Positions 25,211-58,492 of a stretch of 64,000 nucleotides of DNA are shown piece by piece; within the stretch, counting starts at the first letter, position 1, and each line of letters starts with the position of its first letter. This DNA comes from Eledone cirrhosa (Eukaryota). A program made the position numbers and the translations under genes. The stretch spans positions 1-64,000 of the forward strand of contig CAXHJY010001509.1 in NCBI GenBank assembly GCA_964016885.1, given 5' to 3'. A model generated the notes under the pieces. It made no database searches, was not told where the DNA came from, and worked only from the letters and a program-made list of their open reading frames with translations.

Positions 25211-25298
25211 GCATATCTGAAGAGGCGTCGATTAAGAGTTGAGATCCGATCACATGATCAAACCTGAGCTGATCGATATCGAAACAGTTGTAATATGT
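25211..25298 (+). ncRNA. Minimal type I hammerhead ribozyme motif (PLE pLTR-like)
   Basis: GCATAT-CTGAAGA-GGCGTCGATT...GATCGATATC-GAAA-CAGTTG-TA-ATATGT; AATAAA follows. Confidence 0.75.
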
Positions 25299-25365
25299 AA
25301 TAAAATTTCATAAGTTGCAAATCTGACTTCCTACTCTCTCTCACCATAGATAGAGAGAGAGAGAG

Positions 25366-25425
<60 letters not shown>

Positions 25426-25430
<5 letters not shown>

Positions 25431-25560
25431 AAAATGTATAGCTGTAGAAATGGCTTGAGCTCTGCCATCGGGGTCATACATTTTCCTATTACCCACTCTA
25501 CTACCCTAAGTATTGAGTACTCTGGTGCGTTATGGTCCATCTGGTTCCTTACCACAACTC

Positions 25561-25562
<2 letters not shown>
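25426..25562 (+). mobile_element. PLE pLTR-like fragment with hammerhead 3' half and short inverted 5' arm
   Basis: Near-identical to 28045-28172; ATAGGAAAATGTAT / ATACATTTTCCTAT inverted arms; flanked by (TA)n. Confidence 0.6.
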
Positions 25563-25615
<53 letters not shown>

Positions 25616-27230
25616 TACATACATACATACAAACAAATGCATACATTCATTTTTACATATGCCTTACTATGACAAAATAGGTTACAGAAGACTTTTTAAG
25701 GCAGATTTCTTTATAACTTTCCTAATTCCAACTCTCAAATGTTAGAAATCATTGTTTATGTTAGGCATTAACAAATAACACTTGGTTGCCTTAGATGCTG
25801 TTGATATTGATATGAAGACATGGTAAATGAAAACAACCACGTACACACAGTAGTGAGATACACACACACACATACACATCTATATGTGTGTGTGTATATA
25901 TATATATATAGTTGAAAAAGGAGGTACAGTTCCATACAAATCGGTGATTATAGCTAAAAAGTAAAAGTGAAAAATCACAAGAGTATATTTAAAGATTGTT
26001 TTCTCTAAAATTCAACAATGAGTATTTTTATAACCATTACATTAAGCGAATTTAAATTTTAGCAAATATTAATCGATTTCTAGGACTTAATTGGGCTCTG
26101 ATCAGAACAGCCAATGACACCCACTGCATCAATCCCTCCATCTCATGGGGCTCCTTCTTGATACAAGTGGCATACCCCTTGATTTTGCCAAGGAAAACAG
26201 CAGTTCAAGCACCGAAGACCAAGAACATTAGAGGTATCTATGGTAACAGGCATGATAAGGAAGCAGTCGGTAAAACCCTGGTACATGGATATCTTGTGCT
26301 TTTCTGTGTTACAAGCAGCAGTGTCTGGCTTTGTGGCAAAAGCAACAAGATTGGTGTTCGAGAACATATCCCAGCATATAGCATTGCAGCATGTTAGATA
26401 TTTTGATGATCAGTTAATAGAACAAATGAATATCCATCATGACAGTATAACAGCAGATCCATTATGTGGCTAACCTATCATATTTCATAGATAATGACTT
26501 GCAAAATCGAAGTTTAAAATATAAAATGACAAACAAGAAAATTAAATTTGAATATATTATATTTGAAAGCAGAATGACTAAAAACATCAAATTAAAGCTA
26601 TCATTTAATATCTTTAAATTATAACTGCTGTTACTGTAGGTGTGTTTTGGTGGTAGTGATAATGGTGGTGGTGTTTCTGCTGCTGGTGCTGTGAATGTTG
26701 TTGCTGTTAGTGTAGCTGTTGTTGCTGTTAGTAACACTACTATTGCCATCCTTGTGATTGGTCTTGTCTTTGCTAATATTGAGATTATAGTTGTTATTGT
26801 TATTGCTTAATCATAACCGTTTTACTTCACTCAGCCATTTGTTTTTCAGCCCAGAGTAATTTGGGGAACGTCATTAATTTTAACAAGAAAGATGCTATAT
26901 TCAGAAACTAATTATTTCCATGCAATACTACTATCATTTTGGCTTATTATATTTCATGTAATCCCAGGAACATTCTATCACTTGTGGTAATAAAACATAA
27001 TTCTTTCATTACACACATAAAAAGAAAAAATCAGAGTATTTATGTGATCCAGCCTATGAGAAAATCTCAACAGATTAGCCAATATTACTGAATTTCAGAA
27101 TATATATATACATACACACACATCTATAGGTCTACATCTATGCACACATACATTATACGTGTGTGTATATATATATATGTACACATCTATATACTTAAAC
27201 ACATCTCTCTCTCTCTCTCTCTCTCTCATA

Positions 27231-27293
<63 letters not shown>

Positions 27294-27323
27294 AGATCAA
27301 AAGATGGTTAAAAGAGTTCCAAG

Positions 27324-27394
27324 TATTTTATTATGCGCATTTCAAAAACAAATATCATCATGAGATTATATCTGCGTTTTCATCAGATAAAATA
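27324..27394 (-). ncRNA. Minimal type I hammerhead ribozyme motif
   Basis: Minus strand TATTTTAT-CTGATGA-AAACGCAGATAT...ATATTTGTTTTT-GAAA-TGCGCA-TA-ATAAAATA; perfect 8-bp helix I and palindromic helix III. Confidence 0.85.
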
Positions 27395-27936
27395 GGGATA
27401 CATGATATGAAGGTTAAAAAACACTTGTGAATAGTGAAGTTTTAAATCAACTTATATTATTTATACTCCAGTCCTACAAACTGTAGAGTGCTACTTATCT
27501 GATATTTGCATTGCTTTATTGTACTACAATAAAACTCACCTCCTACATATATATATATATATATATACACTAAAATTAAAATATGTATGTATATAAGTGT
27601 GATACAATTGTGATCATTAGCATCATATCATTATAATTTTAATATTCTATGTTATGGCTTAAAGCTATATATTTCTCTTTTGTTAGGAGTCATTTTTCTT
27701 TATTAGTTTATAGTTGTGTATGGAAGCTAGATCTTATCACAATCATTGGAAACTGTGGTGTTCTGGGTTCCACCCTATCACACAGATCTTTTGGCAATTG
27801 TCTTTTACTGTGGCTTCAGGCTGCTGAATATCTTGTGAATGGTATTTGGTAGACAAAACCATACAGAAACCTGTCAAATATATGTACACATGCACACAGA
27901 CATATGTGTGTGTATGTATGTATGTATGTATGTATG

Positions 27937-27975
<39 letters not shown>

Positions 27976-27979
<4 letters not shown>

Positions 27980-28170
27980 AGGTATGACCCCGACGGCAGA
28001 GCTCAAGCCATTTCGACAGCTATTTCAGGACTAGTGTAGTCCTGAAATAGCCGTCGAAACGGCTTGAGCTCTGCCGTCGGGGTAATACCTTTTCCTATCA
28101 CCCACTCTACTACCCTAAGTATTGAGTACTCTGGTGCGTTATGGTCCACCTGGTTCCTTACCACAATTCC

Positions 28171-28172
<2 letters not shown>
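27976..28172 (+). mobile_element. PLE pLTR-like fragment with 119-bp foldback palindrome
   Basis: 27976-28033 is the reverse complement of 28037-28094 with about 3 mismatches; flanked by (TA)n. Confidence 0.7.
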
Positions 28173-28204
<32 letters not shown>

Positions 28205-28209
<5 letters not shown>

Positions 28210-28562
28210 TCATTTTACGTCCGCTTTTCCCTGCTTGCAAGGGTTGCTCGGGTCCTATTCAGCACAGCATCTCTCCACTTGTCACGGTCCTTCGTCATCT
28301 CCTCGGTGAGTTTCAGTTATCTCAGGTCTTCTGTCACCACCTCTGCCCATGTTTTGTGTGGTCTACCTCTACTGTGTCTTCCTTCTACTGAGATTTCTTG
28401 GCTCTTCTTTACCCAGCGGTCATCCTCCGCATCACATGAACTAACCATCTCAGCCTTCTCTCCTGCACATCACAACTTATACCCAGTCTCTTTCTCAACT
28501 CGTCTATGCTTGGTCATTCACACACATTGGCATTGCACATCCAACAGAGGATACTAGCTTCA
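28205..28562 (-). mobile_element. RTE LINE 3' end
   Basis: Minus strand encodes RR.RW..HV and GRP.KTW.EVV motifs; (GAT)n tail. Confidence 0.8.
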
Positions 28563-29129
28563 GGTTTAATTGTTATTCTCAGTCTGCCTGAGAACTCTGT
28601 TACAGATATACCTGTGTATGATGCTTAGCCACTCGTGAGTTAATTTCACAGGCAGGCTTTTCCATTGATCAAGTCAAACTTGAACACTCATTTTTTTTTT
28701 ATTGTAGAACCAGGGTCAGTTTCAGATGGTTTGTAATCAAACTTAATTAGCTTGACATTATTCTCAAAAGAGAAAAAGTTAGACTGGTAGGCAGAAGTGA
28801 CAAAAGGTTTCTAATTGCATAAGCATCATTAAATATAAGATTGTTAGAATTGTGATCTCATGTCATTACATAATAGATGTCAGACAATGTTGTATATCAT
28901 TATATTTTGATTGATGCAAAAGATTGTTTAGATTTCATGTTAAATACATGAGATATACTTATATTAGCATCATTATAATATTGATAGAGTTGAAATTTAT
29001 CCATATCTTTGTGAAACCTGTCAGACAATGTGATGCAACACCACAATATTTTTTTCTTGTCACAGATCTACTGGAGTAAGTAATGAGAGAGGTAATGAAG
29101 AATAACTTTGATATGGTGTTGTATAGTTT

Positions 29130-29700
29130 ATTGGCATGAGGCTATGCGATTCAGATTCTGTTGATAAAATTACAGCAATACAGTAGGTTGATGACTTCCA
29201 ATTTATTTTAACTGAAGCAGGTCTGCAAGTCAATCATGGTAAAATTCAAACTATGATTAGCTATTTTGGAATCATGATGGGAAGGTAAATTGGATATCAA
29301 CAGAACTGGGAGAAAATTCACTAGTTAGGGGCCACTTGCAAAACAGAATCTAAGATAATGGTACACAAGATCAATATATGGGTTATATCAGAATATCATT
29401 CATTACCTTAGATTCTACTGTTTAACTATAGTTTTTGACCCTTATTGAATGGATGGAGGAGTGTAAGGCAGGTAATCTTACCTCCATTAATCCAAATTAT
29501 TACAGGAACAGCAACCAAATCTTCAAAGCAATCAGTAAGGCTTTTCCTCAAATGGAAGCCAGAAGGTGGGCATAGAAAACAAACCAGACTGTCAAAACCT
29601 GGCTGAGGTTTGTAGGGGAAGATCTGGGAACAGGCCTGTGATAAGGCTTGCAATTATGAGGCTTGCAATTATGAGATCTCCAGTTGCCCAAAGCTCCATA
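29130..29700 (+). mobile_element. Highly decayed RTE-like LINE fragment
   Basis: Residual DDFQ and WKPEGGHRK..R..KTWLR motifs with many disablements. Confidence 0.45.
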
Positions 29701-30724
29701 AGGGGCAAATGGTGCTAAAAAGAATCAAGAACTATAAGCTTAATAGGCAGTGAATTTTCAGTCCTTAGAGCATTTATCCTGGCTTATTGCTCTCTAAATT
29801 AAAATCCTGCTGAGGAATACTTTGCCTTTCATCCTTTCAAGATCAGTATATAAAGTACCAGTTCAGAGATGGTGAATTGGATGTTTTGTGCTTTTTAGGT
29901 TCAAATTGCACCTCTTTTGCCAAGAGTTGCAACTGGCAAATAGTAACAGCAATGGAAAGACCAATGGAAACATTGGTCTGATCTTCCTTTCTTTCCTTTT
30001 CTTTCTTTTGATAAACATCTCAGCTTCTTTAATAAGAATTTAAAACATTCCATCATATGTGAAAAGCTTTTGGTATATTATATACCAAACTCTGAATTAA
30101 TATAGTAATTAATCAAAAAATTAAATATTTTATTTAATCCCTTCAAATTCTTGATTATCTTGATTATCTTTATGAGAACTGTGGATATCTCTAAAAATAT
30201 GGTTATGAGAGGGTTAAATTTATGTTTTAGTGAATGGCAGTGATACTGAGTTGCTTTAAGTGATAAGCTAACTGATTAAATTAGGTTATCAGTAAATACT
30301 AGTCTGTTTTTGATTTTTCTAAGTTTGCATTGGAAAGCCTTAATGAGAGAAGAAACATGCAAGTCAGGAATGGCTGAATATAGTGGCAGAAAGAAAAGCA
30401 TATATGACTATGAGAAGAAATGTCCATAATTGATTGAGAACCATAATAGAAGCTTTCAATCAATGAAACATTACAGATCATGTTTATTGATAATCAAATT
30501 AGTAAATGCAGTGCTGGTATCAGCACTGTTTAGTTGTAATTACTGAAACCTTGATTTGGCCTGCATAAGGCAGGCCTAAAACCAACATAATTGCTGAGAT
30601 AGGCTTCATACATCAGTGGATCTAATATCACTGGGTAAAAAAAAAAAAAAAGTTAATTTCAAATAATCAAAAAATTGAGATAATAATTGTACATATACCA
30701 ATGGCCAAATAATGAGGATACTAG

Positions 30725-30987
30725 TACATGGAAGGAATGTAATCCATTCAAGGAATATGATACATGGAAGGAATGTAATACATGGAAGGAATATAATACA
30801 TGGAAGGAATATAATACATGGAAGGAATATAATACATGGAAGGAATATAATACATGGAAGGAATATAATACATGGTAGGAATATAATACATGGTAGGAAT
30901 ATAATACATGGTAGGAATATAATACATGGTAGGAATATAATACATGGTAGGAATATAATACATGGTAGGAATATAATACATGGAATG
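30725..30987. repeat. 18-bp minisatellite (TACATGG[A/T]AGGAATATAA), about 14 units
   Basis: Visible directly. Confidence 0.97.
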
Positions 30988-31899
30988 AATGTACTATTCT
31001 CCTTAATTAGTGAGAGCACTAACACAGCAAATGTGTATCATATCATCATCATTTTAACATCATCTTTCCCTACTAGCAAGGGTTGGACGTGTCTACATAG
31101 ATCAAGTCAGTACTGAAGCGGGGCCACTGATCTCCCAGGCAGCCCAGGATTCTGTGCCTCAATACTCCATTGAGTACACAACCGAAAGGTTGTCATGTCT
31201 TTGACACAATTCCAACCCTTTATTTGGCAATATTTCTATTATGATTGGATGCCCTTCCTAACACTAACCACTTCACAACGTGTATTGTGTATGTTTATTA
31301 TGTTCATCACCAACACTAAGGAGGTTGTTATGTCTCTGGTATGACTGAGGGTTCTACCAGCCCTTTAAACCCATGTATAGTATATTTACATATAATAAAC
31401 ACACATGTAATTTGTCTACATTTTAAGCTGAAATCATGTCACAGATATCTCAGAATAGGGGTAAACTTGGTGAATTCATGTCATTACAGTTCATCATTGA
31501 TAAATTATGTACTAGATTACTTGGGGTGATATGATCAAATAAATCAAGAGCATGCCCCAGCATGAGCTCAGTCTACTGACTGAAGCTAGTCAGATGACAT
31601 ACACACACATATGTGTTGGTGTCCGAAACGTGAAGACTTTTCCTTCTATATCAAGCATTAAACATTTTTCTTCATTGTACTATGTTTTTTTTTGTTGTTT
31701 CCATCTACTTTTTGCATATATATATATATATACATACATACACACACAGACACACATACATAAATACACACACATAAATAAATACATACACATCTATACA
31801 TATATATTTATATAAAGGATAAAAAAAATCGTTATAGGTAATCCAATTAGAGGTTGTGAATACTTATTATGGATAGCTTTAGCGTACAGCGTTCTTGAC

Positions 31900-33332
31900 T
31901 CAACAATGATTCAGCCCAATTACAGACATTGTTGGAATGTATATAGCATATTTCTCACTTAGAGAATTTGATAACCTACAAGGAGGAATCTATAGAGACG
32001 ATACACTACTTTTAGCTAAAAACTTAAATAATCAAAACTTAGAAAGATTAAGGAAAATGATTAGAAAATTCTTTAATAATTTAGGCCTTAACATCACTTT
32101 TGAACCCAACTCTAAAAAAGCTAATTTCTTAGATGTATCGCTCAACCTTAACTCAGGACTAATAGAACCCTTCCATAAAAATAATGAAAATTTAGCTTAC
32201 ATTGATTATAACTCTAATCACCCTCGATCCATAATTATCTCCATAGCACATAGTATATCCCTTAGAATATCATGCCTATCTTCTAACCTAGAAATTTTTA
32301 ATGAACACGCTAACTACTACAACACAGCTTTACTTAAGGCAGACCATAAAGAAAGACTCAAATACATACCAGATACAAAAAAAAACATCACTATTAATAG
32401 CACCATCCACACATATAGAAACAACAAACCTAGAACTAAACATAAAAATTGGCAACATGCACGTAAATTAAAGGAACAGAATACTAATACAAAGACCACT
32501 AATAACTATAGAAGATGCAGAAATAGAAACTACTTATGGTTCAATCCTATGTTTAACTCCTCTATAAAAACTAAGCTTCCTTACACTTTCTTCAAATTAG
32601 TTGACAAACATTTCCCTAAAATTCATAAATATCATAAAATCTTTAATAGAAAAACTATCAAACTATCATACTCCACTGCCAACAACATAGAATCGCACAT
32701 ACACAAAATTAACTATAAAATAATTTAATACAAGTGGCCCACAAATAAGTACCATAACACCTAATACAAAACACAAGCATATAATATCATCACAACCAAA
32801 CACACGTCAGAGCACATCACCACAATACATCAACAAACCCAATTCTCAGCCCATACATAGCAACCTGCAAAACCATTTAGAAGAACCGGCGCATAGAAAA
32901 GCATCTAAATGTAACTGCCACCTACCTGACAAATGCCCTTTACAAAACAAATGCCTAGAGACAAATATAGTATACCTATGTACTATAAATCCAAGTAGCT
33001 TAGCATGGCATTACATTGGTTCCACAGCTGGAGAGTTTAAGAAAAGGTGGTACTTTCATAGACACTCTATGACTAACAGGAATCTCTCAAAGACAACGAC
33101 TCTCTCCAATAAAATCTGGCAACTTAAAGATGCAAACATAGAATATAAAATCAGCTGGACAAAGCTATCAAAAGCAAAGGCCTATCAAATTGGTATGTCC
33201 CACTGTGGTCTCTGTAGTATGGAACTTTTTCAAATTTTAAATTACAAGATTCTTCTTAACAGGAAAATTGATAAAAACATTTTTTGTCGACATAAATCAG
33301 CAACTAGATTTGAGAACTTTAGACCAGCTTAA
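31900..33332 (+). pseudogene. Penelope-like retroelement, 5'-truncated: RT C-terminal part plus Cys-rich linker and GIY-YIG endonuclease; stop and frameshift between domains
   Basis: GIYRDD, NFLDVSLNL, YIDYNSNHP, RNRNYLWFNP (31937-32728). In another frame from 32907: KCNCHLPDKCPLQNKCLETNIVY...HYIGST..EFKKRW..H...LSNKIWQLK...CGLC..E...LLNR...CRHK. Confidence 0.92.
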
Positions 33333-35330: not shown

Positions 35331-35351
35331 CATATATATGTATATATATAT

Positions 35352-36028
35352 TGTGCAGAGGATCTGTGCAGACTGGAGAGGAACGAAGCTTGCATGCTCC
35401 GTTGGATATGTAGTAGTAATATACGTGAACGGCAAAGCATAAATGAACTAAGTGAGAAATTAGGAATAAGAGGGATCAGATGCTGTTTACTCAAGAGAAG
35501 ACTACGTTGATATGGTCACGTGATACGCATGAAAGACGAGAGCTGTATGAAAAAAGTGCAGGGCGATCAAAATAGATGGAAGCTACGGAGTAGGCAGACC
35601 CAGAAAAACCTGGGACGATTTGATAAATTCCGACCTTACACACACCTCTCCAAGACAATGTCACTGGACCGAGATCTTTGGCATTACGCAGTAATACAGA
35701 AGACCCGCCTTGCCTAAGTACAAAGCGAAACCTACAGTCAGTAGGCACCTCCTAACCAAAAATACACCCGCATCCCACTACCCCTACCCTTTCTCTGTAA
35801 AGTTATGTTGGTACCACAGCATCCAGTCCTAAATAAATGAGGTCGTGTAGGTGTCACAGCAAAAAAAAAAACAGTCGACACTGTAATGTGGCCGTGTAGG
35901 TAACACGGTAAAAAACCTCCCAGTCCACACTGTAAACGTGGTTGGTGTTAGGAAGGGCATCCAGCCGTAGAAAACCTGCCAGACAGTCCTATACGAGCAA
36001 GACAACCAATCTTGCCTGAAATGGGACA
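35352..36028 (+). mobile_element. RTE LINE 3' fragment, subfamily A; terminal tail missing
   Basis: CAEDLCRLERNEACMLRW...RRLR; aligns with 39601-40300. Confidence 0.92.
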
Positions 36029-37582
36029 GTGAGTGAGTGAGTGAGTGAGTGAGTGAGTGAGTGAGTGAGTGAGTGAGTGAGTGAGTGAGTGAGTGAGTGA
36101 GTGAGTGAGTGAGTGAGTGAGTGAGTGAGTGAGTGAGTGAGTGAGTGAGTGAGTGAGTGAGTGAGTGAGTGAGTGAGTGAGTGAGTGAGTGAGTGAGTGA
36201 GTGAGTGAGTGAGTGAGTGAGTGAGTGAGTGAGTGAGTGAGTGAGTGAGTGAGTGAGTGAGTGAGTGAGTGAGTGAGTGAGTGAGTGAGTGAGTGAGTGA
36301 GTGAGTGAGTGAGTGAGTGAGTGAGTGAGTGAGTGAGTGAGTGAGTGAGTGAGTGAGTGAGTGAGTGAGTGAGTGAGTGAGTGAGTGAGTGAGTGAGTGA
36401 GTGAGTGAGTGAGTGAGTGAGTGAGTGAGTGAGTGAGTGAGTGAGTGAGTGAGTGAGTGAGTGAGTGAGTGAGTGAGTGAGTGAGTGAGTGAGTGAGTGA
36501 GTGAGTGAGTGAGTGAGTGAGTGAGTGAGTGAGTGAGTGAGTGAGTGAGTGAGTGAGTGAGTGAGTGAGTGAGTGAGTGAGTGAGTGAGTGAGTGAGTGA
36601 GTGAGTGAGTGAGTGAGTGAGTGAGTGAGTGAGTGAGTGAGTGAGTGAGTGAGTGAGTGAGTGAGTGAGTGAGTGAGTGAGTGAGTGAGTGAGTGAGTGA
36701 GTGAGTGAGTGAGTGAGTGAGTGAGTGAGTGAGTGAGTGAGTGAGTGAGTGAGTGAGTGAGTGAGTGAGTGAGTGAGTGAGTGAGTGAGTGAGTGAGTGA
36801 GTGAGTGAGTGAGTGAGTGAGTGAGTGAGTGAGTGAGTGAGTGAGTGAGTGAGTGAGTGAGTGAGTGAGTGAGTGAGTGAGTGAGTGAGTGAGTGAGTGA
36901 GTGAGTGAGTGAGTGAGTGAGTGAGTGAGTGAGTGAGTGAGTGAGTGAGTGAGTGAGTGAGTGAGTGAGTGAGTGAGTGAGTGAGTGAGTGAGTGAGTGA
37001 GTGAGTGAGTGAGTGAGTGAGTGAGTGAGTGAGTGAGTGAGTGAGTGAGTGAGTGAGTGAGTGAGTGAGTGAGTGAGTGAGTGAGTGAGTGAGTGAGTGA
37101 GTGAGTGAGTGAGTGAGTGAGTGAGTGAGTGAGTGAGTGAGTGAGTGAGTGAGTGAGTGAGTGAGTGAGTGAGTGAGTGAGTGAGTGAGTGAGTGAGTGA
37201 GTGAGTGAGTGAGTGAGTGAGTGAGTGAGTGAGTGAGTGAGTGAGTGAGTGAGTGAGTGAGTGAGTGAGTGAGTGAGTGAGTGAGTGAGTGAGTGAGTGA
37301 GTGAGTGAGTGAGTGAGTGAGTGAGTGAGTGAGTGAGTGAGTGAGTGAGTGAGTGAGTGAGTGAGTGAGTGAGTGAGTGAGTGAGTGAGTGAGTGAGTGA
37401 GTGAGTGAGTGAGTGAGTGAGTGAGTGAGTGAGTGAGTGAGTGAGTGAGTGAGTGAGTGAGTGAGTGAGTGAGTGAGTGAGTGAGTGAGTGAGTGAGTGA
37501 GTGAGCGAGCGAGCGAGCGAGCGAGCGAGCGAGCGAGCGAGCGAGCGAGCGAGCGAGCGAGCGAGTGAGCGAGCGAGTGAGC
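36029..37582. repeat. About 1.47-kb pure (GTGA)n array ending in about 60 bp of (GAGC)n
   Basis: Visible directly. Confidence 0.99.
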
Positions 37583-37604
37583 ATATATATATATATATGT
37601 ATAG

Positions 37605-37817
37605 TGTTAAAATGCTGGGAGTTTATATCCGTAGTAAGTCCAAAGAACGAGTTTGGTATAGAGTTAGTTCCACAACAATTTAGCAAACCATATTCGACGA
37701 TGCGCATTTCACCGATTTTCAACCTGTATATAGCCTAACCATACACAGGTTGAAAATCAGCTAGGTGAAATGCACGTCCTTGAGTATGGTTTGCTAATTT
37801 GTAGTGGAGCTAACTCT
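37605..37817 (-). mobile_element. PLE pLTR-like fragment with about 158-bp foldback palindrome (37660-37817)
   Basis: Arms AGAGTTAGTTCCAC...AACCTGTATAT and ATACACAGGTT...GTGGAGCTAACTCT; each arm carries GAAA-TGC(G/A)C(A/G)-TC. Confidence 0.6.
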
Positions 37818-40597: not shown

Positions 40598-41033
40598 GGT
40601 ATGAATCGAAGTTGTAGCTGCCATATTAGAAAGTTATTTGAGGCAATCACAAAGCAATCAATGGATCAAAAAGCTAAACTGTATTGTCCGAAGTAAAACA
40701 GTTAAAAAGTATGATACCAAGAAAAACTACCAAATACAGTGGCCATACTTATACCACAACAAAGAATACAAAAAGGTATATATATTATACATACTATACT
40801 TAAAATTTCATACTGTTAACATGTTCTGGTATTCAATGAAAGGGTAGTTTTGAAATGGCTCCCCCACTATACAGTGGAGGCCATAACTGGACCCCAATAC
40901 CTAAGGTTGCACATACATGTTAAAAGTATGAAATTTCAAGTATACTAAATAAGCTCGCTTGTAATGGATTGAGTATTGTTTTTCTTGGCTTTTTAATTAC
41001 TGATACACACACATATCTATATATATATATATA

Positions 41034-42284: not shown

Positions 42285-42674
42285 CATCATCATCATCATT
42301 ATCATTTTACGTCCGCTTTTCCCTGCTTGCAAGGGTTGGACGGGAACTGATTCTGGCTTGATTTCTACAGCTGGATGCCCTTCCTAACACCAACCTCATT
42401 TACAGTGAGTGCTGGGTGCTTTTTTTTCGGTGGCACCTACATGTCCACTTTACAGTGTGGGCTGGGTACTTTTTTGTTGTAGCACCTCCACGACCACTTT
42501 GCAGTGGAATGATAGGGACCCCAGTCCTATCATCTCATTTCTACAGCTGAGTAAACTGGAGCAATGTGAAATAAAGTGTCTTGCCCAAGGAAACAACATC
42601 ACCCGAACTGAGAATTGAACTCACAAACTTTCGATTGCAAAACCAATGCTCTAACCACTAAGCCATGTGCCTCC
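42285..42674 (-). mobile_element. SINE family B, tail with an extra RTE module
   Basis: Matches the 41034 copy plus AGCCCACACTGTAAAGTGGACATGTAGG module. Confidence 0.92.
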
Positions 42675-43868: not shown

Positions 43869-46342
43869 GGAAAAGATATATTTATATGTTGGTACACAGA
43901 TAAATAATGGTGAGAGCAGTTGTAGTGGTAGTATTGCTGAGATATTCAATGAAATTAAAAGACCACTAACCAGTTTAGTGTTGAGGCAACAAAAATATAA
44001 TATATGAAGTTATATTAGTGACTGAGAATTGATGGTTTGATTCAATTGAGATAACCAAATTTTCACTTACATTTTATTGTAAATATATTTAATGCTTAGA
44101 TGTCATTGGCACTACCATTGTAGACACCATCATTGCCATCACTATCAGCATCAACATCACCGTTTTCCTCATCCTCATTACCATTAATATCATCATGAAC
44201 ATCACCAACATATCGGTCTAATTCGACTAAAACATGCCCATAGCTGTATCTTACCCACACACAAAACTCAATTTTTTTCTTAGGGAGTTAGTGTGCATTA
44301 ATGTATGTAGGAGCTTGTGTGAATGTAGCTGGATTCATGTTATGAGTGTGCCTGTCTCTTTAGTACTTAAGTGTATATATGCATGATTACTTAATGTATG
44401 TGTGCATTTGTATGCCATATACATACATAACTGAAGGCATATCTTTAATCAATCAAATTCAAATTGTGAATCTTTGGAATTTTTTAGTAATCTTCACTGT
44501 AACACTATTCAATTGGCTTTGGAGAATGCGAGTCAGTTGATTTTCTTTCTTCAAAAACACCAAAATTCATGCAAATCTTTGGTTACATAGCCCAGAGCAT
44601 GTATGAGAACTACAAATGAAAACCTATAATCAGGTTAAAAGAATTGTAAATTCCACATTGATTCATTCTAGGTATTTTCTTTAAGTTCTCAACCATAAAA
44701 AATACCTTCCTATTCAGTGTGAAGTTAACCTACACCAGTGGGTTTACTTATCTTTCCTGTCCCATGGAGCAATATCAGGTTGTATTTGCACTAAATTGTT
44801 CTTTTTGTTGGAATGTTCAGTCAATATTCCTTATTTTTTTAAAGTGTGGATAAATTCTGGTTTTGGTTCTGGTTGTTGTGTTTCTTTATGTAATCATCAA
44901 GACAACCTTCTTGTTGATAAATATTGTAAATAGCCTTGGCACCTGTCATGGCTCATGTAAAAATAGTATCATCATCATTATCATCAATTCTTATTTATGT
45001 TCCACATAAACAGAGCTCTAACTGCTCAATGGTTAGATTCACAGTGGTTAGGATTGGCATCAGTAAGAGCATTTAGCTATAAAATTTTGCCTCAAAAATG
45101 TTTATCAAACCCATGCCAGCATAGAAAAATGGATGTACTAATGATGATGGTAAAAAAAAAAAATATATATATATATAGTTGTTGAATTGTAAGTATTGGT
45201 ATAAATACATTTAATGACACTATATTAATATAAATATAATTGAGAGAGAGAGAGAGAAAGAGAGAGAAAGAGAGAAAGAGAGAAAGAGAGAGAAAGAGAG
45301 AGAAAGGGAGAGAAAGAGAGGGGGGGGTCTGACTTAAAACAGGTGATTTAATAATATTTTTTTTAAATCAGATTAGTTAGCATAAAGAAGAATATAATAT
45401 CAAAATAATTTTTTAAAATAAAATTATTTTCAATATGAAAATCTTGTTGTTTATTAGAATTTCATCTTAGAAATTAATTAATATTTGTTGCTTCAGGTAT
45501 TAAAGATGAAAGTTTAGTTTAAACAAAAGTTTAAGCTGCAACAGCAATATATTATCAGCAGTTTTCATTTCTAGACATTTTTTGATTCCAGTGAATATCA
45601 GACAACTACCTGGCTGGTTCTGGCACCATGGTAAACTCCACTTAGTACAATCTGTAAAGAAGTTAATGATCAAACAGTGACAACATAGGGTAAGGAAAAT
45701 TCATTCTGTTGAGGGCATAGTCTCTTTGGTGTTATTCCATGATAAAAATGCGACCAGTTCAATCTATAAAGTGATTGATATTGATACTCGGAAAGGCACT
45801 AGGCCATAGGAACTGTACTAAAAATGGAATTTAGGAATGTGTTTAGGTCTCTCTACACATGAAGGGGAGCAGATATTCCAAATAAGAACTGACTTGGACT
45901 GAGATGGGTGGCCAAACACATGACAATAAAATGAAGATTATGATAAAGGTAGGGGTCATTTGAGACTGTGATAGTGACAAAGGTGATAAAATCATAGGGA
46001 GTTTGTAGGTTTAAAAAATTTAGTTAGCCACGAGGAACGAAAATATCTGCCATTTTGGACAAACATTCCTCAGACTTTTGCACTTATTATTATTGCAACT
46101 AAACTTACTGATCTCATTAAACTATCTTGAAAAAATATAATGTTGGCTTTGGTAGAATTTGAAGTCAGAATGTAGAATTTATAAAGTAGGTATGTATGGC
46201 TGTAGGGTTAAGGAGTGAAATTTTGTAGACATAAATTGCAGAAGCCTCTACTTCATAAATTCTACATTTTGACTTCAAATTCTACCAAAGCCAACAATAT
46301 ATTTTTATACATTTGCATCATAGTTTAGCATGTTTTTCAGGC

Positions 46343-46379
<37 letters not shown>

Positions 46380-46382
<3 letters not shown>

Positions 46383-46858
46383 TCATCATCATCATCATCA
46401 TCATCATCGTTTAACGTCTATCTTCCACGCTAGCATGGGTTTAGACGGGAATTGTCCCACTTGAGGCAAGATTGGTCGTCTCACTCGTATGTTACTGTCT
46501 GGCAGGTTTTCTACGGCTGGAAGCCCTTTCTAACACCAACCACGTTTACACACATATATATATACATATATATATATAAATAAATAAATAAATAAATATA
46601 TATCACCTTGACCGACCAGTCTGTCGGGTGCCAATCGGCGCCGCTGGTCACAGCATGTCGTGCTGTTTTAGACATAAGATAACGCCATCCCACTGGCTGG
46701 GTGGGCAGGCTGGTACTCATTTCTAGAGCTGAGCAAACTGGAGCAACGTGAAATAAAGTGCCTTGCTCAAGGAAACAACACATCACCCGGTCCGAGAATT
46801 GAACTCTCAACCTTTCGATTGCAAGCCAAATGCTCTAACCACTAAGCCAAGCACCTTC
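46380..46858 (-). mobile_element. Composite: RTE tail (46380-46548) plus CORE-like SINE with a different 3' end (46604-46858)
   Basis: Tail and SINE head match other copies in the window. Confidence 0.85.
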
Positions 46859-47327: not shown

Positions 47328-47370
<43 letters not shown>

Positions 47371-48653: not shown

Positions 48654-48697
<44 letters not shown>

Positions 48698-49734: not shown

Positions 49735-49935
49735 TCTTCGCCCATTTATTCCTAAGAGGGTCTTGTGGGGGGCAGAGTTCTCAAACACTCCTTCCAGTGG
49801 GTCCTGTCAGAAGCAACCATCTCCAACTGATCCAGCTGGATCCCCAAGCATGACTAGCCAAGCTCATGGATCCAACCAACTTGCTCAGGGTGATCTATGC
49901 TTGGGTCTCTTGCCAGCTGGTTTTTGCCCATAAAA
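49735..49935 (-). mobile_element. Decayed RTE/Expander-like 3' end
   Basis: Minus strand AGKRPKHR..ASWLD..AW motif remnants. Confidence 0.4.
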
Positions 49936-51138: not shown

Positions 51139-51151
51139 ATATATATATATA

Positions 51152-51434
51152 AGTAGTAACATGTGCTTATGCCATATTGGACTTAATAGAATTAGTCTGC
51201 TAGTTTGGATTTTTAAAAAACCTCTGAATGGAAAAATGAATGAGTATTGACAAACCCACATCTTTGGTTTGCCAGACAAATGTGTTACCATTACATCAAC
51301 ATGTCTGGGCAACCAAAGATGTGGGTTTGTGTCCCAATACTCATCCTTTTTTCCATTGAGAGGGTTTCTTTTTAAATCCCAACTAGCAGACTAATTCTAT
51401 TTAGTCAAATACTGCATAAGCACAAGTTACTACC
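51152..51434. mobile_element. About 283-bp almost fully palindromic MITE, TA-flanked
   Basis: Arms AGTAGTAACATGTGCTTATGC...GCCAGACA and TGTCTGGGC...GCATAAGCACAAGTTACTACC. Confidence 0.85.
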
Positions 51435-52123
51435 TAATTTTCAAATTCGCTAGCCATTTCTAAACGAAGCATGCTTTGTGTCTCCCGATTTATATACATA
51501 TATATATATATATATCACATTACAAATATACATTTTGTTAGCACAGAGTATTTTGTTCACTTTTATATTCAAACTATATTTTATTGAGTAATTGTGAGCA
51601 ACCAAGATTTTGAAAAATATATTTCCTATAGCTTCTATAGACTCTATATATATAAAACTACATGGTTTAAACACATTTTCGCACTAGATGTCAACGTGTA
51701 TTTGTTTACAACATTAATATTGATATAAAGTGAATACTGACAAGACCAATCCGCCCTACAGATACATTCGTTTCCTCCTGTCTATGTATGTAATAAATGT
51801 TCAAGCACAGAGCATGGTGCAGCAGTTAACTCACATGTTATTTTTCATACCTGATTTTCTAGTAAAAAGCTGTGATTTATCTATGAGAATACATATACAT
51901 CATCAGCATTTACTGTCTGCTTTCCTGCTTGCAAGGGTTGGCTGTGTTTACCTTACTAAATCAGTACTGAAGCAGGGCTACTGACCTCCCATACTGGCTG
52001 AGGGGTTTGCATCACGCATAGATACATTCGATCAAGTGTAGAGAAGAAATTGTATCTTTTGACACAAACTGAAGAGTCCTCCCAACACACATGCATATAT
52101 ATATACACACACACGTGCACGTG

Positions 52124-52173
<50 letters not shown>

Positions 52174-53209
52174 TATATATTTCATATGTTATATAATTAA
52201 ATTGATAAAATATCTCATTTCTTATTACTTAACTAATCTTAGCTTAATGCTGAGTAATTCCATTAACAAATCTTATAATTAAGTATTATTTAACGTATCA
52301 CATGAGTCTGCTTATATATGCAGACAGCAAATCTCTTATTCTTATCTGAACTCTGTGTGATCTTCACAAATAACTAGCATATATATAAATACACTTCACG
52401 CCAAACTTCAAAGTAATTAAAAGAATTTCTCTCGTCCTTTCTTCCAGAGAGGAAAAGTTTTATAAATATAGATTATATCTAACATTTGCTTAAGTAATCT
52501 ATGCATTTAATATGCCATTCCAGTGCACTACTACTAATCCATTAGCAATCTTTAAGTGTGGATCAGCAACATGTCTTAATCCATACAAGTAAAGTAGTCA
52601 CACCTATAATAAGTAATAATGAAGTATACTGTTTTATGAGAAGAGACTTATCTAGTAACCTCTTCAATGACCATTTTTAAGACTATTATAATCAATCTGG
52701 TTTTAATCTTTGCAGCCAGTGTATTCTATCTGTGTCTATTATCTTCTTAGAATCCATTAAAGGTTTGAAATATCATTAGTTGTCAAGGTGTTATTTGACT
52801 AGAGTATTCCACTTCACAGTTAATAACAAACATTGATAGCCAGATCAAAGGTGTAAAATCATATATATATATATATGTTAGTTTGTATGTTTATATATAT
52901 ATATATGTTAGTTTGTATGTTTATATGTATATATATATGTCTGTTTGTATGTATATATATGCACTTGTGTGAGTAAGAATACGGTGGTGATTAAAAGTTT
53001 TGAAAATAGAATTAGAAGCTTTCACCATACATTGACTACAGAAAATAGACTAATATTAGGGCATATGAGACCCCATAAGGAGGGGAAAATGGGCATTAGC
53101 ATGCATGGGAATCAAACCCACACCTTTTATTCAAACAACCAAATATTTCTTATTCTGACTATAATACAATGGGTTATGTACTAGCGAAATGATTTCCTGA
53201 GAGGATATT

Positions 53210-53550
53210 TCATTTCATTTCATTTCATTTTCCGTCTGCTTTTTTCCCTACTTGCAAGGGTGGGACGGGAACTGATTCTGGCTTGATTTCTACAGATGCA
53301 TGCCCTTCCTAACACCAACCTCATTTACAGTGAGTGCTGGGTGCTTTTTTGCCGTGGCACCTCCACGACCCCTTTGCAGTGGAATGATATGGACCCCAGT
53401 CCCTATCATCTCAATTCTACAGCTGAGTAAACTGGAGCAATGTGAAATAAAGTGTCTTGCTCAAGGAAACAACATCACCCGGTCTGAGAATTGAACTCAC
53501 AACCTTTCGATTGCAAGGCCAATGCTCTAACCACTAAGTTATGTGCCTCC
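53210..53550 (-). mobile_element. SINE family B
   Basis: Matches 41034-41378. Confidence 0.93.
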
Positions 53551-53793
53551 ATATAGATTATAAAAACTAGAACTCTGGATTACTGATACAAACAGTTTTG
53601 AGTTCAATCTTATTAGAAGCTACATAATCCATACCAAAGTAATTTTGATGGAATAGGTTCTATATCTTATTAACTATTCTGCCTGTGTTAACCATGGTTA
53701 CATAGACTATACAGCTACTACTTATTTCATACTTGTCTTGTTTCATCCCATTCTTTTTTATTTATTTATTACATTCTTTAATTTCACTCACAA

Positions 53794-53960
53794 GCACTGC
53801 GTCTCCTCCCCATCTTCCAGGGAAATGCCTTCTCTATTCTGTCTACCAGGGCCATAGGGCGGCCAGTACGTGGGCCCTCGTTTGCTCATAATAGTCAGAG
53901 ATGGGTAAAGTGAGAGACAGAGGCAGTGAAAGTTTGGTTCCGTTGTGTTCTGACCTGGTG
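53794..53960 (+). mobile_element. CRE-clade 3' tail fragment
   Basis: GNAFSILS motif; reverse homolog of 58000-58180. Confidence 0.65.
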
Positions 53961-54848
53961 TATATGTATATATTTATTTACCACACCACACTAACTGTAT
54001 ATTACAAGATTCTTTTGTACGTTACTGGTGCTTTATTTTACCTTTTAACATGATTCTCATATGTTCAAAAGAAAGTCCTGAACCCCACCCCACCCCACCC
54101 CTGAACCATCAAAACTCCATCCTCCATTCTTCTCATGTCACACACAAACCTATCAGATTTGATAAATTGCATCAATTTCTTTTGTTCTCTAACACTGACC
54201 ATCGCTAGATAGATTACATAGTTTGTTTTCATCTTTACAGTTCTGCTGGCAGAGATGTTTAATGTGTTGCATAATTGGCTACCATGCTGTCATAGATTCC
54301 GAAAACCTTTATTCCATAACCATTTAGGCTCCCAGATAAATTATATAACTCTGCTTGCTGTAGTGTTATAGTGTACCTTGTCTATGATTAGAATTCTAAA
54401 CCAATTTCATGGTTGAGTGAAGAAATAGCAGAAGAGAGGCCATTCATTCATCTATAAAACAAGCTGGTCCAACAAACGATTTCACAAGAAATCACAGGAA
54501 AAATGGAAAACAAAAATATACATGATAGAAGAAAAATATATGATATACACTGTTTATATGATATCCAGTTTATTCCTGAGATTTTCCCTTTATTTATAAA
54601 ACCAATGGATTGTTAAGAATTTCACATGGATGAGGTTATCAGGTTACGATTACTAGAAGGTATTTTGTTTTTGCTTTTCAGATTCAGATTCCTTCTCTAA
54701 ATTTTTCTTAGATTGTGTGTATGTTATATGAAAAAGAGGTTATTTGAAAGTACACAGAGATAATTGTATGGAAATATTTTCAATTGATGCTAGAGTACAA
54801 GCAGCACATAAAGCCAGAAAAAGTGATCGTTGATGCAGAAGCAATTAT

Positions 54849-54886
<38 letters not shown>

Positions 54887-55353
54887 CCTTCATCTGCTTC
54901 GTAATATGTGAATAGTTCAAGTAACATATTTAATCATTTTTTTTTTTTTTTGTTGACAGTGAAAATAAGTTACTTGAACTATTCACATTTTACGTAAGTG
55001 TGTGAATATGTATACGTACAAATTTATTCGTGCGTGCGATAAATGATAAATGGTTAGAATTTCTATTTGATAAACTTAATACATTGACAAACACGTATCG
55101 AACCACATATCTATTCTACATCAAACAACAGCAATATCTGTTGACGTTCATGAATTGTATGAAGTATGAAAGGCTATCAGAGACATAATCGAGATGTACA
55201 TGAAATTACATAAATGCGAAGTTCACTTTTTTCCCACCAAACAAATATGCTGACAATATAAATAACTTGAAATTACAAACAGAGATGACCATAGCTGTCA
55301 AAATTCAACATACACACAGATATATCTCTATTTCACATGAAAATATAGAATAT

Positions 55354-55400
<47 letters not shown>

Positions 55401-55487
55401 GTTATAACAGTGACATATACATGTACTTAAGTTTCGTTGGGTTACACACCCCTAACTCATTCAGCCTGTCATATAAATATATATGTA

Positions 55488-55564
55488 CAAGGTGCCCTCA
55501 AAAAATGGATACACATTTATTAGAATGCTGTTGAAATGGGTATACATTTTTGAGGAACACTTTG
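55488..55564. mobile_element. Tc1/mariner-type mini-MITE
   Basis: TA-CAAGGTGCCCTCAAAAA ... TTTTTGAGGAACACTTTG-TA; inverted sister copy at 62630. Confidence 0.8.
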
Positions 55565-55592
55565 TATATATGAGAGAGGGAGGGGGAGAGAA

Positions 55593-55629
<37 letters not shown>

Positions 55630-56186
55630 AAGAGAGAGAGAGAGAGAAAGAGAGTTCAATCAATTCTAATTTCCAGATAGGTTATGGAGTACAGTTTAGT
55701 AACTTCCATCCGATTTGATTCCACATTTTTTAATGAAAATTTGTAAATATATTTTCGAAGGTGTAAGGTTATGATTATTTTGAAAAAAAAAAGGTGCTCC
55801 GTTTATTTAAATGCTTTTCCCAGTTCATTGTTGTAGCAATGACATAACTTTTCTGTAGAAAATGTATTACGTTATCCTAATATTTATTACCAACATGAAA
55901 TTGGATGACTTGATGAAAAAAAAAATGCCCTCGTTTGCGTTTAGCTTATCACAAACACAAATCTAAAGGATTAACGAGCGGAACTATAAACAATAAATGA
56001 AAGTATTAAAAAGAAATCAAATTAATCCTCTTTTGTATTTCCTTAACAAAATTGTACTAAAACGTATCCGCAAAATTTCATATAAAAATGTGCATTATTA
56101 AGGAAGATCTGAGGAAATAAATTTAGTGGGTGGGACGTGAGAGCACTGACCTGTAAGCCGAGTATCAGTAAACATGTATATAAGAT

Positions 56187-56800
56187 ACTAGCAGTGGTAC
56201 TCGGCGTTGCACGGGATAAGGTATTTTGGAACGCGGGCCGCCAACAGACCTAATCGTGGAAAAATTGCATGCCTGGACAATATGTAAAGAAAATAAACCG
56301 AATACTCTGATGGTTAGATAATCTTTAAGATTTTCCTCGATGAAGCAGGAAAAATGCAGGTTTTCACCTAATGCAGGCCCTACGGGGTCAAGAAAAGGAA
56401 TTTTTTTCATTTGCCTAATATGCCTTGAAATTTGGGGAAAATCGGCTGGATGTAACGGCTCCAAAAAGCCCTAAAAAGCTGAAAAAAATGAAGTTTTTCA
56501 CCTAATGCGGGCTCTAGGCCATAAAAAGTTGGATTTTCTTTGCTTACCGTATGAAGAAGAGACTGACTAATACATAGTTACAATTTCAAGGAAACCAGTC
56601 TGACGTAATGACTCAAAAAACCCCTAAAAATCTTTTTAAAAGGCAGTTTTTCACCTAATGCGGGCCCTAGGAGATCTAAATGTTCAAATTTTTTATGTGC
56701 ATAACACTCCCTGAAATATAAGTAATACACATGTAAAGTTTGAAAAAAGTCGGTTGGGTACTTTTAGGGATTCAAACAAACAGTTTTCGTTTAAAATTCG
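56187..56800 (+). mobile_element. Helentron-associated (HINE/DINE-1-like) non-autonomous element with internal tandem units
   Basis: Starts ACTAGCAGT...CTCGGCGTTGCACGGG; three TTTTCACCTAATGC(A/G)GGC(C/T)CTA units; late AAGTTTGAAAAAAGTCGG...CAAACAAACAG. Confidence 0.6.
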
Positions 56801-56819
56801 TATTACTTATCCGCATTAT

Positions 56820-57022
56820 AAGGTGGTTTGGCAGTATCGGTAGAGCGTCAGACGCCCTGCTTTGCCTTTACGTTCTGAGTTTAAATCGCTCCTTGGTTAA
56901 CTTCGCCTTTCTTCCTTACGGGGGTCGATAAAATAAAGTACCAGTCACGCACTGGGGTCGATTTAATCGACTTTCCCCTCCCCAGAAATTTCTGGCGTTT
57001 TGCCTATATAAAAAAATCGATA
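56820..57022 (+). mobile_element. SINE family A, longer subfamily
   Basis: Core match; CpGs retained. Confidence 0.85.
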
Positions 57023-57039
57023 TTATACTATTATACATT

Positions 57040-57173
57040 CAATGCCGGATTCACCATTGTATTTAGGTGTGGCCGGAAAGAGAGCAGCTTCCTACCAAAA
57101 GATGTTTTTACCTCCTCCAGGGGCCTCATAACTTAACTAACACAGGGCCTCATTTGTCCTAAATGCGGCACTG
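57040..57173. mobile_element. hAT MITE with 8-bp TSD TATACATT
   Basis: TIRs CAATGCCGGATT / AATGCGGCACTG; exact 8-bp direct repeats. Confidence 0.85.
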
Positions 57174-57667
57174 TATACATTTATAATTGATAAAATACGA
57201 TGTTTACAACTTTAATAAAATACGTTCATGCTTCATAAATTGTTCTAATTCGGTTAATCATCTATACCTAACCCCCCCCCCCCCCCCCCCACGTAGGTTA
57301 TGGAGCATATTTATGTTTTATTAGGCATCTATTGAAAGAGTATTTTCAATGACGAAAAATAGTTGGTCTCAAGAAAGAGTTAAATAGATGAATTAACAGT
57401 ATTCATTGATGTTACGTTGTAAATTCAATATTGACGCAAGTTACAGCGAGTTCTTTGGAAATAAATAAAGACTATTATAGATTGTTTTTAAAGAAAGTTC
57501 ATTCAAGTGAAAAATATGAATGGACAAAAACTAAAATGTTCAAAGAAGTAATTAAATTTTTATGTTCGTTGCTTTGCTGAATGCTTGATATAAAAGCTAT
57601 CAGTGTTAATTTGTTGGTTTAGTGTGTGTTTCAGTACTGAAGCTTAAGAGTTAGGTTATGGATAAGA

Positions 57668-57879
57668 GTCGATCGACTTTCGTCAAATCGGACCGAGGAA
57701 ACAATGTTTCCGTTGGTATCTCCAATTGCTAATACTCTATATCGGTTGCAACTCCAGGTAGAAAGAGTAACGTGAAATAAAGTGTCTTGCTCAAGGACAT
57801 AACGCATCACCCGGTCCAGGAATCGAACTCACAACCTCACGATTGCGAATCCAATCCTCTACCCACTCAGCCATGCGCC
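57668..57879 (-). mobile_element. CORE-like SINE variant with a distinct tail
   Basis: Head and core as family B; second copy at 60405-60565. Confidence 0.8.
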
Positions 57880-57994
57880 TAAACACCTCTATATTTCACA
57901 AGTACTAGCACCTACAACAAAAATTGACAGCTGTTTTGATTTGAAGTTTGAGAATTAAAGTACACACGTAGAACCCATTATAGATTCATTAACT

Positions 57995-58290
57995 GCTTAA
58001 TGACAAGGATATAGTCCGAACGTGGAAGAGCCGAACTTCCGCTGTCATCTCCTCCATCTCTCTCGCCTCTCCATCTCTCCGTATGGTGAGCAAATGGAGT
58101 CCCACGGGCTGGCCTCCCCACAGCCCCCGGACAGAATGGAGAAGGCGTTTCCCCGGAGGATGGTAAAGGAGATACGCTGGAAGAGACATTCCAACTCGCG
58201 AGGCTCACACCTGCGGCTGGCCAGCTCAGCGCCTATGGTGGTGAGTAGGGTGGTGAGTAGCCCTAGGGCCAAAGACACCAGAAGTCTCTG
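57995..58290 (-). mobile_element. CRE-clade non-LTR 3' fragment
   Basis: LTTIGAELASRRCEPRELECLFQRISFTILRGNAFSILS. Confidence 0.8.
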
Positions 58291-58295
58291 TTAAA

Positions 58296-58450
58296 TGCGT
58301 CCTCGTCAGATAGAATACACGAGTTGATGTGTGACATGCCTCAACTGTCTTGATAGTTCAATTCCAGTATTGCCAATACTGGAATTGAACTATCAGGACG
58401 GTTGAGGTGTGTCATGCTTCAGTTCATGTATTTTGTCTGACGAGGACGTG
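58296..58450. repeat. About 155-bp imperfect palindrome centred at 58373
   Basis: CGTCCTCGTCAGA...CCAGTATTG-C-CAATACTGG...TCTGACGAGGACG. Confidence 0.95.
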
Positions 58451-58492
58451 CTGAAAAACCAGCACGGTGCCTTCGAAATATATATAATAAAA
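58431..58492 (+). ncRNA. Minimal type I hammerhead ribozyme motif
   Basis: TTTTGT-CTGACGA-GGACGTGCTG..CAGCACG..TTC-GAAA-TATATA-TA-ATAAAA. Confidence 0.7.

What the first reader, a model, noticed from the sequence alone, without database searches (positions are those of the whole stretch)
25211..58492. Candidate system: intact hammerheads alongside foldback islands that carry only substrate halves
Seen: three complete minimal type I HHR cores (25211, 27324, 58431) and three foldback islands (25426, 27976, 37660). The islands keep GAAA-helix III-UH-helix I 3' strand but lack CUGANGA; all lie beside (TA)n. Established: PLE pseudo-LTRs carry minimal type I HHRs with short palindromic helix III, thought to work as dimers, and PLEs often give inverted truncated insertions. 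Inference: the inversion point repeatedly maps to HHR helix II, as expected if nascent cDNA snaps back on that hairpin and self-primes. This would turn ribozymes into hairpin elements that are potential dsRNA sources or trans-cleavage substrates. I do not recall this breakpoint rule being described, but I cannot check the literature.
Basis: partly seen in the sequence, partly recalled or inferred. Interest (0 to 1): 0.75.

Follow-up and report, generated by a model that had tools for sequence, protein, structure and literature searches.

The report
Capped-start fold-backs of Penelope retroelements
These small hairpins and ribozyme-shaped motifs are end pieces of Penelope-like jumping genes inserted in TA repeats, and each hairpin likely forms when two DNA copies run to the capped front end of the element's RNA and are joined head to head, a start point that falls inside the ribozyme in only one of the five families.

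Summary
The three intact hammerheads are real (about 0.01 expected by chance). All six sites are short insertion products of five (TA)n-targeting families; four are tied to Penelope-like (PLE) ORFs. The proposed rule (snap-back on helix II) fails. Only family A (27976, 25426) turns in helix II; C and E turn about 70 nt upstream of the core, and 37660 carries a U3:A8-type core in both arms. In family A, 96 of 116 arms end within -7..+10 of a Y|AGT initiator that has a TATA-like box at -30. A non-templated G precedes +1 (G:A 87:13, against 22:78 at +4; family C 38:9), the known mark of a copied mRNA cap. Only 1 of 49 junctions keeps the helix II apex, and arms can be longer than their partners. 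Best model: both target strands prime cDNA from two fixed start sites, the cDNAs run to the cap and are joined. Family A is a Hydra-clade-like PLE (over 30,000 tail matches) whose promoter is helix II, so its mRNA leader is a substrate half. My searches did not find this in print; this scan noted capped-start PLE copies in other genomes. No RNA data.

The parts
25182..25334 (+). Family D single-arm copy: begins at the family's initiator A (+1) inside (TA)n; intact type I hammerhead, core CUGAAGA 25217-25223, long helix II, GAAA 25281, UA site
   Evidence: no ORF link found for D
25429..25567 (+). Family A copy with centre deleted: 11-bp left-arm remnant, right arm from about +10, decayed site (AUC), tail
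27290..27451 (-). Family E arm with intact hammerhead (core CUGAUGA 27386-27380), starting at about +5, ending at the short start site in (TA)n
27452..27546 (+). Opposite arm of the same family E insertion: tail only, head to head with the hammerhead arm
27976..28033 (-). Family A tailless arm: from the internal start site (+58) back to +1 (28032)
28034..28036 (.). Junction filler (3 nt) at the palindrome centre
   Evidence: L001
28037..28095 (+). Family A tail-bearing arm: +1 A at 28038, 3' strand of helix II, GAAA, 5-bp helix III, GUC site after 28078, helix I 3' strand; no core half
28096..28175 (+). Family A 80-nt one-sided tail (the mRNA leader upstream of and into the ORF in full-length copy L391)
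37604..37817 (-). Family B old fold-back: tail 37604-37659, arms 37660-37817, each arm with helix I, core UUGAAAA, weak helix II, GAAA, palindromic helix III, UC
58295..58509 (+). Family C fold-back centred at 58371-58373, about 65 nt upstream of the intact core CUGACGA (58437-58443); left arm cut short at its outer end

Best explanation
These are short insertion products of Penelope-like retroelements in (TA)n, and each palindrome likely forms when both nicked target strands prime reverse transcription on a capped sense RNA, the two cDNAs run to or near the cap, and their 3' ends are joined head to head. Shown: fixed outer ends (one tail-bearing, one tailless arm), fixed inner ends at an initiator-like A, a non-templated G before that A in families A and C, PLE ORFs upstream in long copies. 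Inferred: the A is the transcription start, the G is the copied cap, both primers usually act on one RNA with strand displacement, and joining is by microhomology or end joining. In family A the promoter is built into helix II (TATA-like box = its 5' strand, initiator = its 3' strand), so the mRNA leader and its retrocopies hold only the substrate half, whereas the 3' pLTR holds the whole hammerhead. In B, C, D and E the start lies upstream and the copies keep the core.
For: Family A: 96 of 116 arms end at -7..+10 of Y|AGT, 9 run on past -100, 2 end in between, 9 at +11..+17 (90 loci taken in genome order by a tail pattern). Base before +1: G 87, A 13 in the first 100 of 7,644 hits; at +4, G 22, A 78 of 1,766 hits; Fisher p 3e-21. 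The template has T or C there in all long copies aligned. Contexts are heterogeneous; after removing 13 G that the other arm could supply, 19 G against 3 A remain in 35 consecutive rows, and 3 of 5 hand-picked loci have G on both arms 1-2 nt apart. Family C: G 38, A 9, T 53 of the first 100 of 553, with TATATAAA at -32 and TC|ACT. TATA-like boxes at about -30 also in A and D. 3 of 55 family A fold-backs have a tail on both arms (1/3 expected if independent, p 1e-6); family C pairs are long+short in 18 of 23. Arms share subfamily letters in 41 of 47 pairs, 10.5 after shuffling. L391 is full length with 5' and 3' pLTRs. Published support: PAc cuts and extends both strands from two internal start sites that bound the tail (PMC11167929); an extra G marks the cap in full-length L1 insertions (PMC11702581); pLTR promoter with TATA and TCACT (PMC3846280; PMC2377424).
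Against: No RNA evidence for the start site or cap. G marks only about a fifth of arms that reach +1 (about 6,650 of 33,626), and 21 of 116 arms run 1-7 nt past +1. In the small junction sample the G excess is not significant (4 of 8 against 7 of 34, p 0.17). The +4 control is confounded: 12 of 18 inspected A come from the opposite arm. Family E is weak (G 31, A 23, T 46; 9 of 25 arms end at -2..+5), family D shows no G excess (1 of 14), family B was not tested and B and E have no TATA box at -30. Family C ends in the unbiased sample are scattered (3 of 24 at +1; ungapped method). Arm concordance could also come from gene conversion or subfamilies active at different times. One junction (L161) fits snap-back.
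Confidence: 0.72

Rival explanations
1. Snap-back on hammerhead helix II: one nascent cDNA folds on the helix II hairpin and copies itself.
For: Family A centres lie in the 3' strand of helix II next to its apex; arms share subfamily letters; L161 keeps the apex.
Against: 1 of 49 junctions keeps the apex that such folding needs. Centres of B, C, E lie 31-70 nt upstream of the core. Inverted arms can be longer than, or not overlap, the other arm (L015: 232-nt sense arm, about 1.8-kb inverted arm with the EN frame; tail-only arms, and window 27452-27546). It does not explain the G or the fixed outer end.
Confidence: 0.05
2. One target-primed cDNA runs to the cap, then its 3' end self-primes by short microhomology (or self-priming on an antisense template, as proposed for rotifer PLEs) and copies back to a fixed stop; later deletions trim the apex.
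For: 20 of 49 junctions have overlaps; arm concordance; self-priming is the published reading of such palindromes (PMC3846280).
Against: Loci with G on both arms 1-2 nt apart (L324-L326) need two runs to the cap or a very tight U-turn; unequal and non-overlapping arms; the tailless end matches a known internal start site of reverse transcription (PMC11167929).
Confidence: 0.13
3. The fixed inner end is an RNA-processing site or a strong pause of the reverse transcriptase with terminal C addition, or the hairpins are a self-amplifying non-autonomous family copied from a few masters.
For: Many arms stop a few bases short of or past +1; some junctions recur; 'AGUC' at +1 contains a GUC and follows a UUUAG (sequence).
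Against: Junctions are mostly unique; arms keep the AG; C has no AG; TATA-to-initiator spacing in A, C, D; G is not in excess at +4.
Confidence: 0.1

Closest known systems
Hydra clade of C-terminal EN+ Penelope-like elements (Craig et al. 2021, PMC8557442; section 11 read whole, other passages)
   Same: C-terminal GIY-YIG-type EN, DKT, CxCX5C linker, CxxC and CxH, hammerhead in pLTR, (TA)n targets, inverted 5'-truncated copy, one-sided tail.
   Different: Reported as few families of under 3 kb, mostly cnidarian; here over 30,000 tail matches, an 80-nt tail (30-40 bp is usual), a long 3' UTR, a U3:A8 core with a full 5-bp helix III, and the start site inside helix II.
Head-to-head inverted pLTRs with junction palindromes in Adineta vaga Penelope (Arkhipova et al. 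2013, PMC3846280; parts 2-3 of 5 and passages)
   Same: Palindrome at the inverted junction, tail on one side, TATA plus TCACT initiator-like motif in the pLTR.
   Different: Read there as self-priming, possibly on an antisense template; the passages seen do not map centres to the start site or report a cap G.
Two internal RT start sites of Poseidon PAc (Frangieh et al. 2024, PMC11167929; parts 1-2 of 4 and passages)
   Same: Both strands cut and extended, two start sites bounding the tail, uncleaved RNA as template.
   Different: The main text seen does not derive palindromes from this ('palindrom' 0 hits) and says nothing on the cap.
Minimal PLE hammerheads (Cervera and De la Pena 2014, PMC4209133; parts 1-2 of 4)
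   Same: Type I, palindromic helix III (B, C, D, E), U3:A8 variant known, pairs on opposite strands 100-700 bp apart noted.
   Different: Family A has a stable helix III and a promoter within helix II.
L1 twin priming and cap-derived G (PMC11702581, passages; original twin-priming work recalled)
   Same: Both target ends prime; extra G at complete 5' ends.
   Different: L1 inversions join non-overlapping pieces; here the arms usually overlap in full, giving palindromes.
Non-LTR retrozymes (bioRxiv 10.64898/2026.07.22.740005, part 1 of 5)
   Same: PLE-derived, type I hammerhead.
   Different: Retrozymes are tandem arrays; these are single or head-to-head units.

Membership tests
EN+ Penelope-like element | Single ORF with RT and GIY-YIG-type endonuclease upstream of the 3' pLTR | tested here: met
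   Family A: 807-aa frame in L391 with FDI, YRDD and a C-terminal EN-like domain, read by motif; Pfam gave no hit. Related EN frames lie collinear upstream in B, C, E.
EN+ Penelope-like element | ORF link for family D | tested here: inconclusive
   No collinear match in 39 family D loci of about 3 kb.
EN+ Penelope-like element | pLTRs in partial tandem, inverted 5' copy, one-sided tail | tested here: met
   L391; tail asymmetry.
Hydra clade | DKT, CxCX5C, CxxC and CxH, C-terminal EN, (TA)n target | tested here: met
   DKT 205, CNCPDRSSC 660, CNLC 758, CKH 786 in L391; criteria.
Hydra clade | RWK motif | tested here: inconclusive
   RWR in L393, not in the L391 frame.
Hydra clade | RT phylogeny with Hydra reference elements | not tested
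   No reference sequences fetched.
Type I hammerhead (family A) | Core U/C-UGANA-A, GAAA, NUH and three helices | tested here: met
   89.8% of cells paired in 14 long copies against 27-52% when slid; N7 varies while the rest holds. No two-sided compensatory change; 31 of the first 100 cores have a C3-A8 mismatch.
Type I hammerhead (family B) | Core plus stable helix II closed by G10.1-C11.1 | tested here: inconclusive
   UUGAAAA in 32 of 46 arms (selection partly on this motif); helix I pairs, helix II is about 3 bp with a U-U closing; the window arm does not fold as a hammerhead.
Type I hammerhead | Self-cleavage | not testable with these tools
   Needs an in vitro assay.
MITE / DNA transposon | Fixed symmetric termini and a fixed internal sequence, no retroelement parent | tested here: not met
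   One-sided tail, variable junctions, PLE ORF parent.
Non-LTR retrozyme | Tandem units each with a hammerhead | tested here: not met
   Window copies and sampled loci are single or head-to-head.

The most novel reading that the evidence does not exclude
In this PLE family the core promoter and hammerhead helix II are the same sequence: transcription from the pLTR splits the ribozyme, so the capped leader is a protected substrate half that can be cut only if the core half of the 3' pLTR (same or another RNA) pairs with it, a switch that could decap or circularise the RNA. Tens of thousands of cap-marked palindromes record a general PLE mechanism: two primers, one capped RNA, strand displacement.
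Probability: 0.25. Interest if true: 0.75.

Novelty: new variant of a known kind. Interest (0 to 1): 0.5.

Why it matters
How PLEs make inverted pLTRs is an open question: self-priming on an antisense RNA was the published guess, and the in vitro work stops at priming. A cap-derived G on both arms favours two target-primed cDNAs on sense, capped, uncleaved RNA and gives start sites that can be tested directly. It also explains why some families leave whole hammerheads and others halves, without any role for cleavage. Tens of thousands of 60-bp perfect hairpins are a potential dsRNA source in this genome (untested).

Tried and rejected
Reading the first GAAA in the 27976 island as the catalytic one: no CUGANGA precedes that helix anywhere in the genome (0 hits); the real core is UUGANAA 45 nt upstream with the second GAAA. 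Family B as coreless: first concluded, reversed. Arm mapping was invalid (references included flanking repeats) and was redone; the structure string was out of register and was redone. Rfam, Pfam and ARAGORN gave nothing useful. Sequencing runs: no RNA holder listed; no reads were laid. Naiad membership rejected (EN is C-terminal). Splice acceptor or ribozyme cut at +1 rejected (arms keep the AG; family C has none). Literature searches that found no paper linking PLE palindrome centres to the start site or cap; subscription papers and supplements were not seen.
Full report
Observation. The window is the first 64 kb of contig C1536 of a 3.0-Gb animal genome. A hammerhead descriptor finds three type I motifs with a 6-nt helix III insert at +25217, -27386 and +58437, plus one loose hit at +24990; 100 local shuffles give 0.01 short-helix hits on average. 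Self-comparison shows fold-backs at 27976-28094, 37660-37817 and 58298-58448; 25426 is a second copy of the 27976 family with an 11-bp remnant of its left arm. The six sites belong to five families, here A (27976, 25426), B (37660), C (58437), D (25217), E (27386), with 457 to 1,362 first-look candidates each. An exact 27-mer of the family A tail occurs 30,326 times.

What the families are. Long family A copies continue upstream into a 3' UTR and an endonuclease frame. L391 is full length: 5' pLTR, 807-aa frame, 3' pLTR, tail, (TA)n, and an inverted truncated copy on the left. Its motifs (DKT, YRDD, CxCX5C, CNLC, CKH) match the Hydra clade as described in PMC8557442 section 11; no tree was built and Pfam gave no hit. 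Related endonuclease frames lie upstream in long B, C and E copies; none was found for D. The family A hammerhead is helix I CCCC/GGGG, core UUGANAA (the U3:A8 variant of PMC4209133), a long helix II, GAAA, a 5-bp helix III and GUC. In 14 long copies 89.8% of cells pair, against 27-52% when slid, with no two-sided compensatory change. About 4,757 core halves exist against 33,626 arms that reach the hot spot (patterns differ in length). 31 of the first 100 cores have a C3-A8 mismatch, so many may be inactive. Family B has UUGAAAA inside its arms (32 of 46, selection partly on the motif) with a weak helix II, so 37660 is a decayed whole motif, not a substrate half.

Where the palindromes turn. 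I sampled family A in genome order by the tail pattern: 92 matches in 90 loci from the first 22 Mb of C1. Of 116 arms that reach +18, 96 end at -7..+10 of the A in Y|AGT, 9 at +11..+17, 2 at -17 and -38, and 9 (including the reference copies) run past -100. In other families the fixed end lies elsewhere: the core is at +31 (B, end set by eye), +36 (D, by eye), +69 (C) and +70 (E). In C, 20 of 35 top-hit arms end at -1..+7, but only 3 of 24 arms end at +1 in the unbiased set; in E, 9 of 25 end at -2..+5. A, C and D have a TATA-like box about 30 nt upstream and an initiator-like YYAGT, TCACT or CAGT; B and E have no such box. In A the box is the 5' strand of helix II.

The extra G. Long copies have T or C at -1. 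Among arms with a purine there, G outnumbers A 87 to 13 (first 100 of 7,644); at +4 the ratio is 22 to 78 (first 100 of 1,766; p 3e-21). In 35 consecutive rows fetched, the upstream context is heterogeneous, on tailed and tailless arms; 13 G could come from the other arm, leaving 19 G to 3 A (p 9e-4). Five further loci were picked for a G on both arms; in three the two G-led arms are 1-2 nt apart. The control is imperfect: of 18 A rows inspected, 12 come from the other arm and 6 do not. Family C gives G 38, A 9, T 53, with G even beside (TA)n. Against: the 49-junction sample alone is not significant (4 of 8 against 7 of 34), E is weak (31:23), D shows nothing (1 of 14), B was not tested, and G marks about a fifth of arms reaching +1. 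In L1, an extra G at complete 5' ends reflects the cap (PMC11702581, passage). Row counts for searches are my hand counts of the listings.

Mechanism. Snap-back on helix II needs the cDNA to cross the apex; 1 of 49 junctions does (21 have fillers, 20 overlaps, 8 blunt). It also cannot give an inverted arm longer than its partner (L015) or tail-only arms (window 27452-27546). Outer ends are fixed: 46 of 61 listed tailless arms end at the same base, +58. Of 92 matches, 52 had a tailless inverted arm, 4 (3 loci) a tailed one, 8 were long copies and in 28 the script saw no inverted arm; family C pairs were long+short in 18 of 23. The arms share subfamily letters in 41 of 47 pairs, including a few duplicate or spurious rows, against 10.5 when shuffled. 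PAc protein cuts and extends both target strands from two internal start sites that bound the tail, on uncleaved RNA (PMC11167929). I infer that both nicked strands prime, one at the distal and one at the internal site, usually on one capped RNA; complete displacement gives palindromes, incomplete displacement gives L1-like inversions; the cDNA ends join by microhomology or fill-in. Since the start sites also sit in the mRNA leader (L391), most short copies may be copies of that leader. These steps are inferred, not shown.

Substrate halves. Because family A transcription would begin in helix II, its leader lacks the core. Computed as two strands, leader and core half fold into the full hammerhead (-33.5 against -18.7 kcal/mol apart); the hairpin island (-101.8) does not. 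So a trans-cut leader is conceivable, a trans-cut island is not.

Known and new. Inverted pLTRs, tails, junction palindromes, pLTR promoters and PLE hammerheads are published. Self-priming on an antisense template was the offered explanation. Eight searches found no paper mapping centres to a capped start or placing a promoter in helix II; supplements and subscription papers were not seen. This scan has noted capped-start PLE copies in other genomes and two-armed insertions in this one; I had stated my reading before seeing them, and they are not independent evidence.

Verdict. Interest 0.5.

Noticed in passing
window 31919-33326 (+): Decayed PLE RT-thumb/endonuclease remnant, 35-37% identical to the L391 protein.
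   Followed up: no
window 51150-51436, 46131-46306, 54900-54994, 40792-40947, 23395-23433: Further AT-rich inverted-repeat islands (four printed) with no hammerhead hit; MITE-like or old fold-backs.
   Followed up: no
L186 (G000:C1:13300350-13301950): Family A fold-back whose two arms carry different subfamily letters; a possible two-template or converted event.
   Followed up: partly
L154, L206: Junction fillers are runs of 13-14 A or T, suggesting untemplated tailing of a cDNA end.
   Followed up: no
L192, L143, L103 flanks: A sister family shares helix III and helix I of family A but has a different helix II 3' strand and its own fold-back centre.
   Followed up: no
G000:C10:30558611-30576129 (L405-L409): Family D copy repeated five times at about 4.4-kb spacing.
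   Followed up: no
L120 upstream flank: Family E arm joined to sequence that looks mitochondrial-like by eye; not tested.
   Followed up: no
window about 36000-37580: Long (GTGA)n/(GCGA)n tract beside the family B insertion.
   Followed up: no
window 42607-42666 and 46787-46856 (-): Weak Rfam tRNA matches inside a dispersed repeat, probably tRNA-derived SINE heads; ARAGORN found no tRNA.
   Followed up: no
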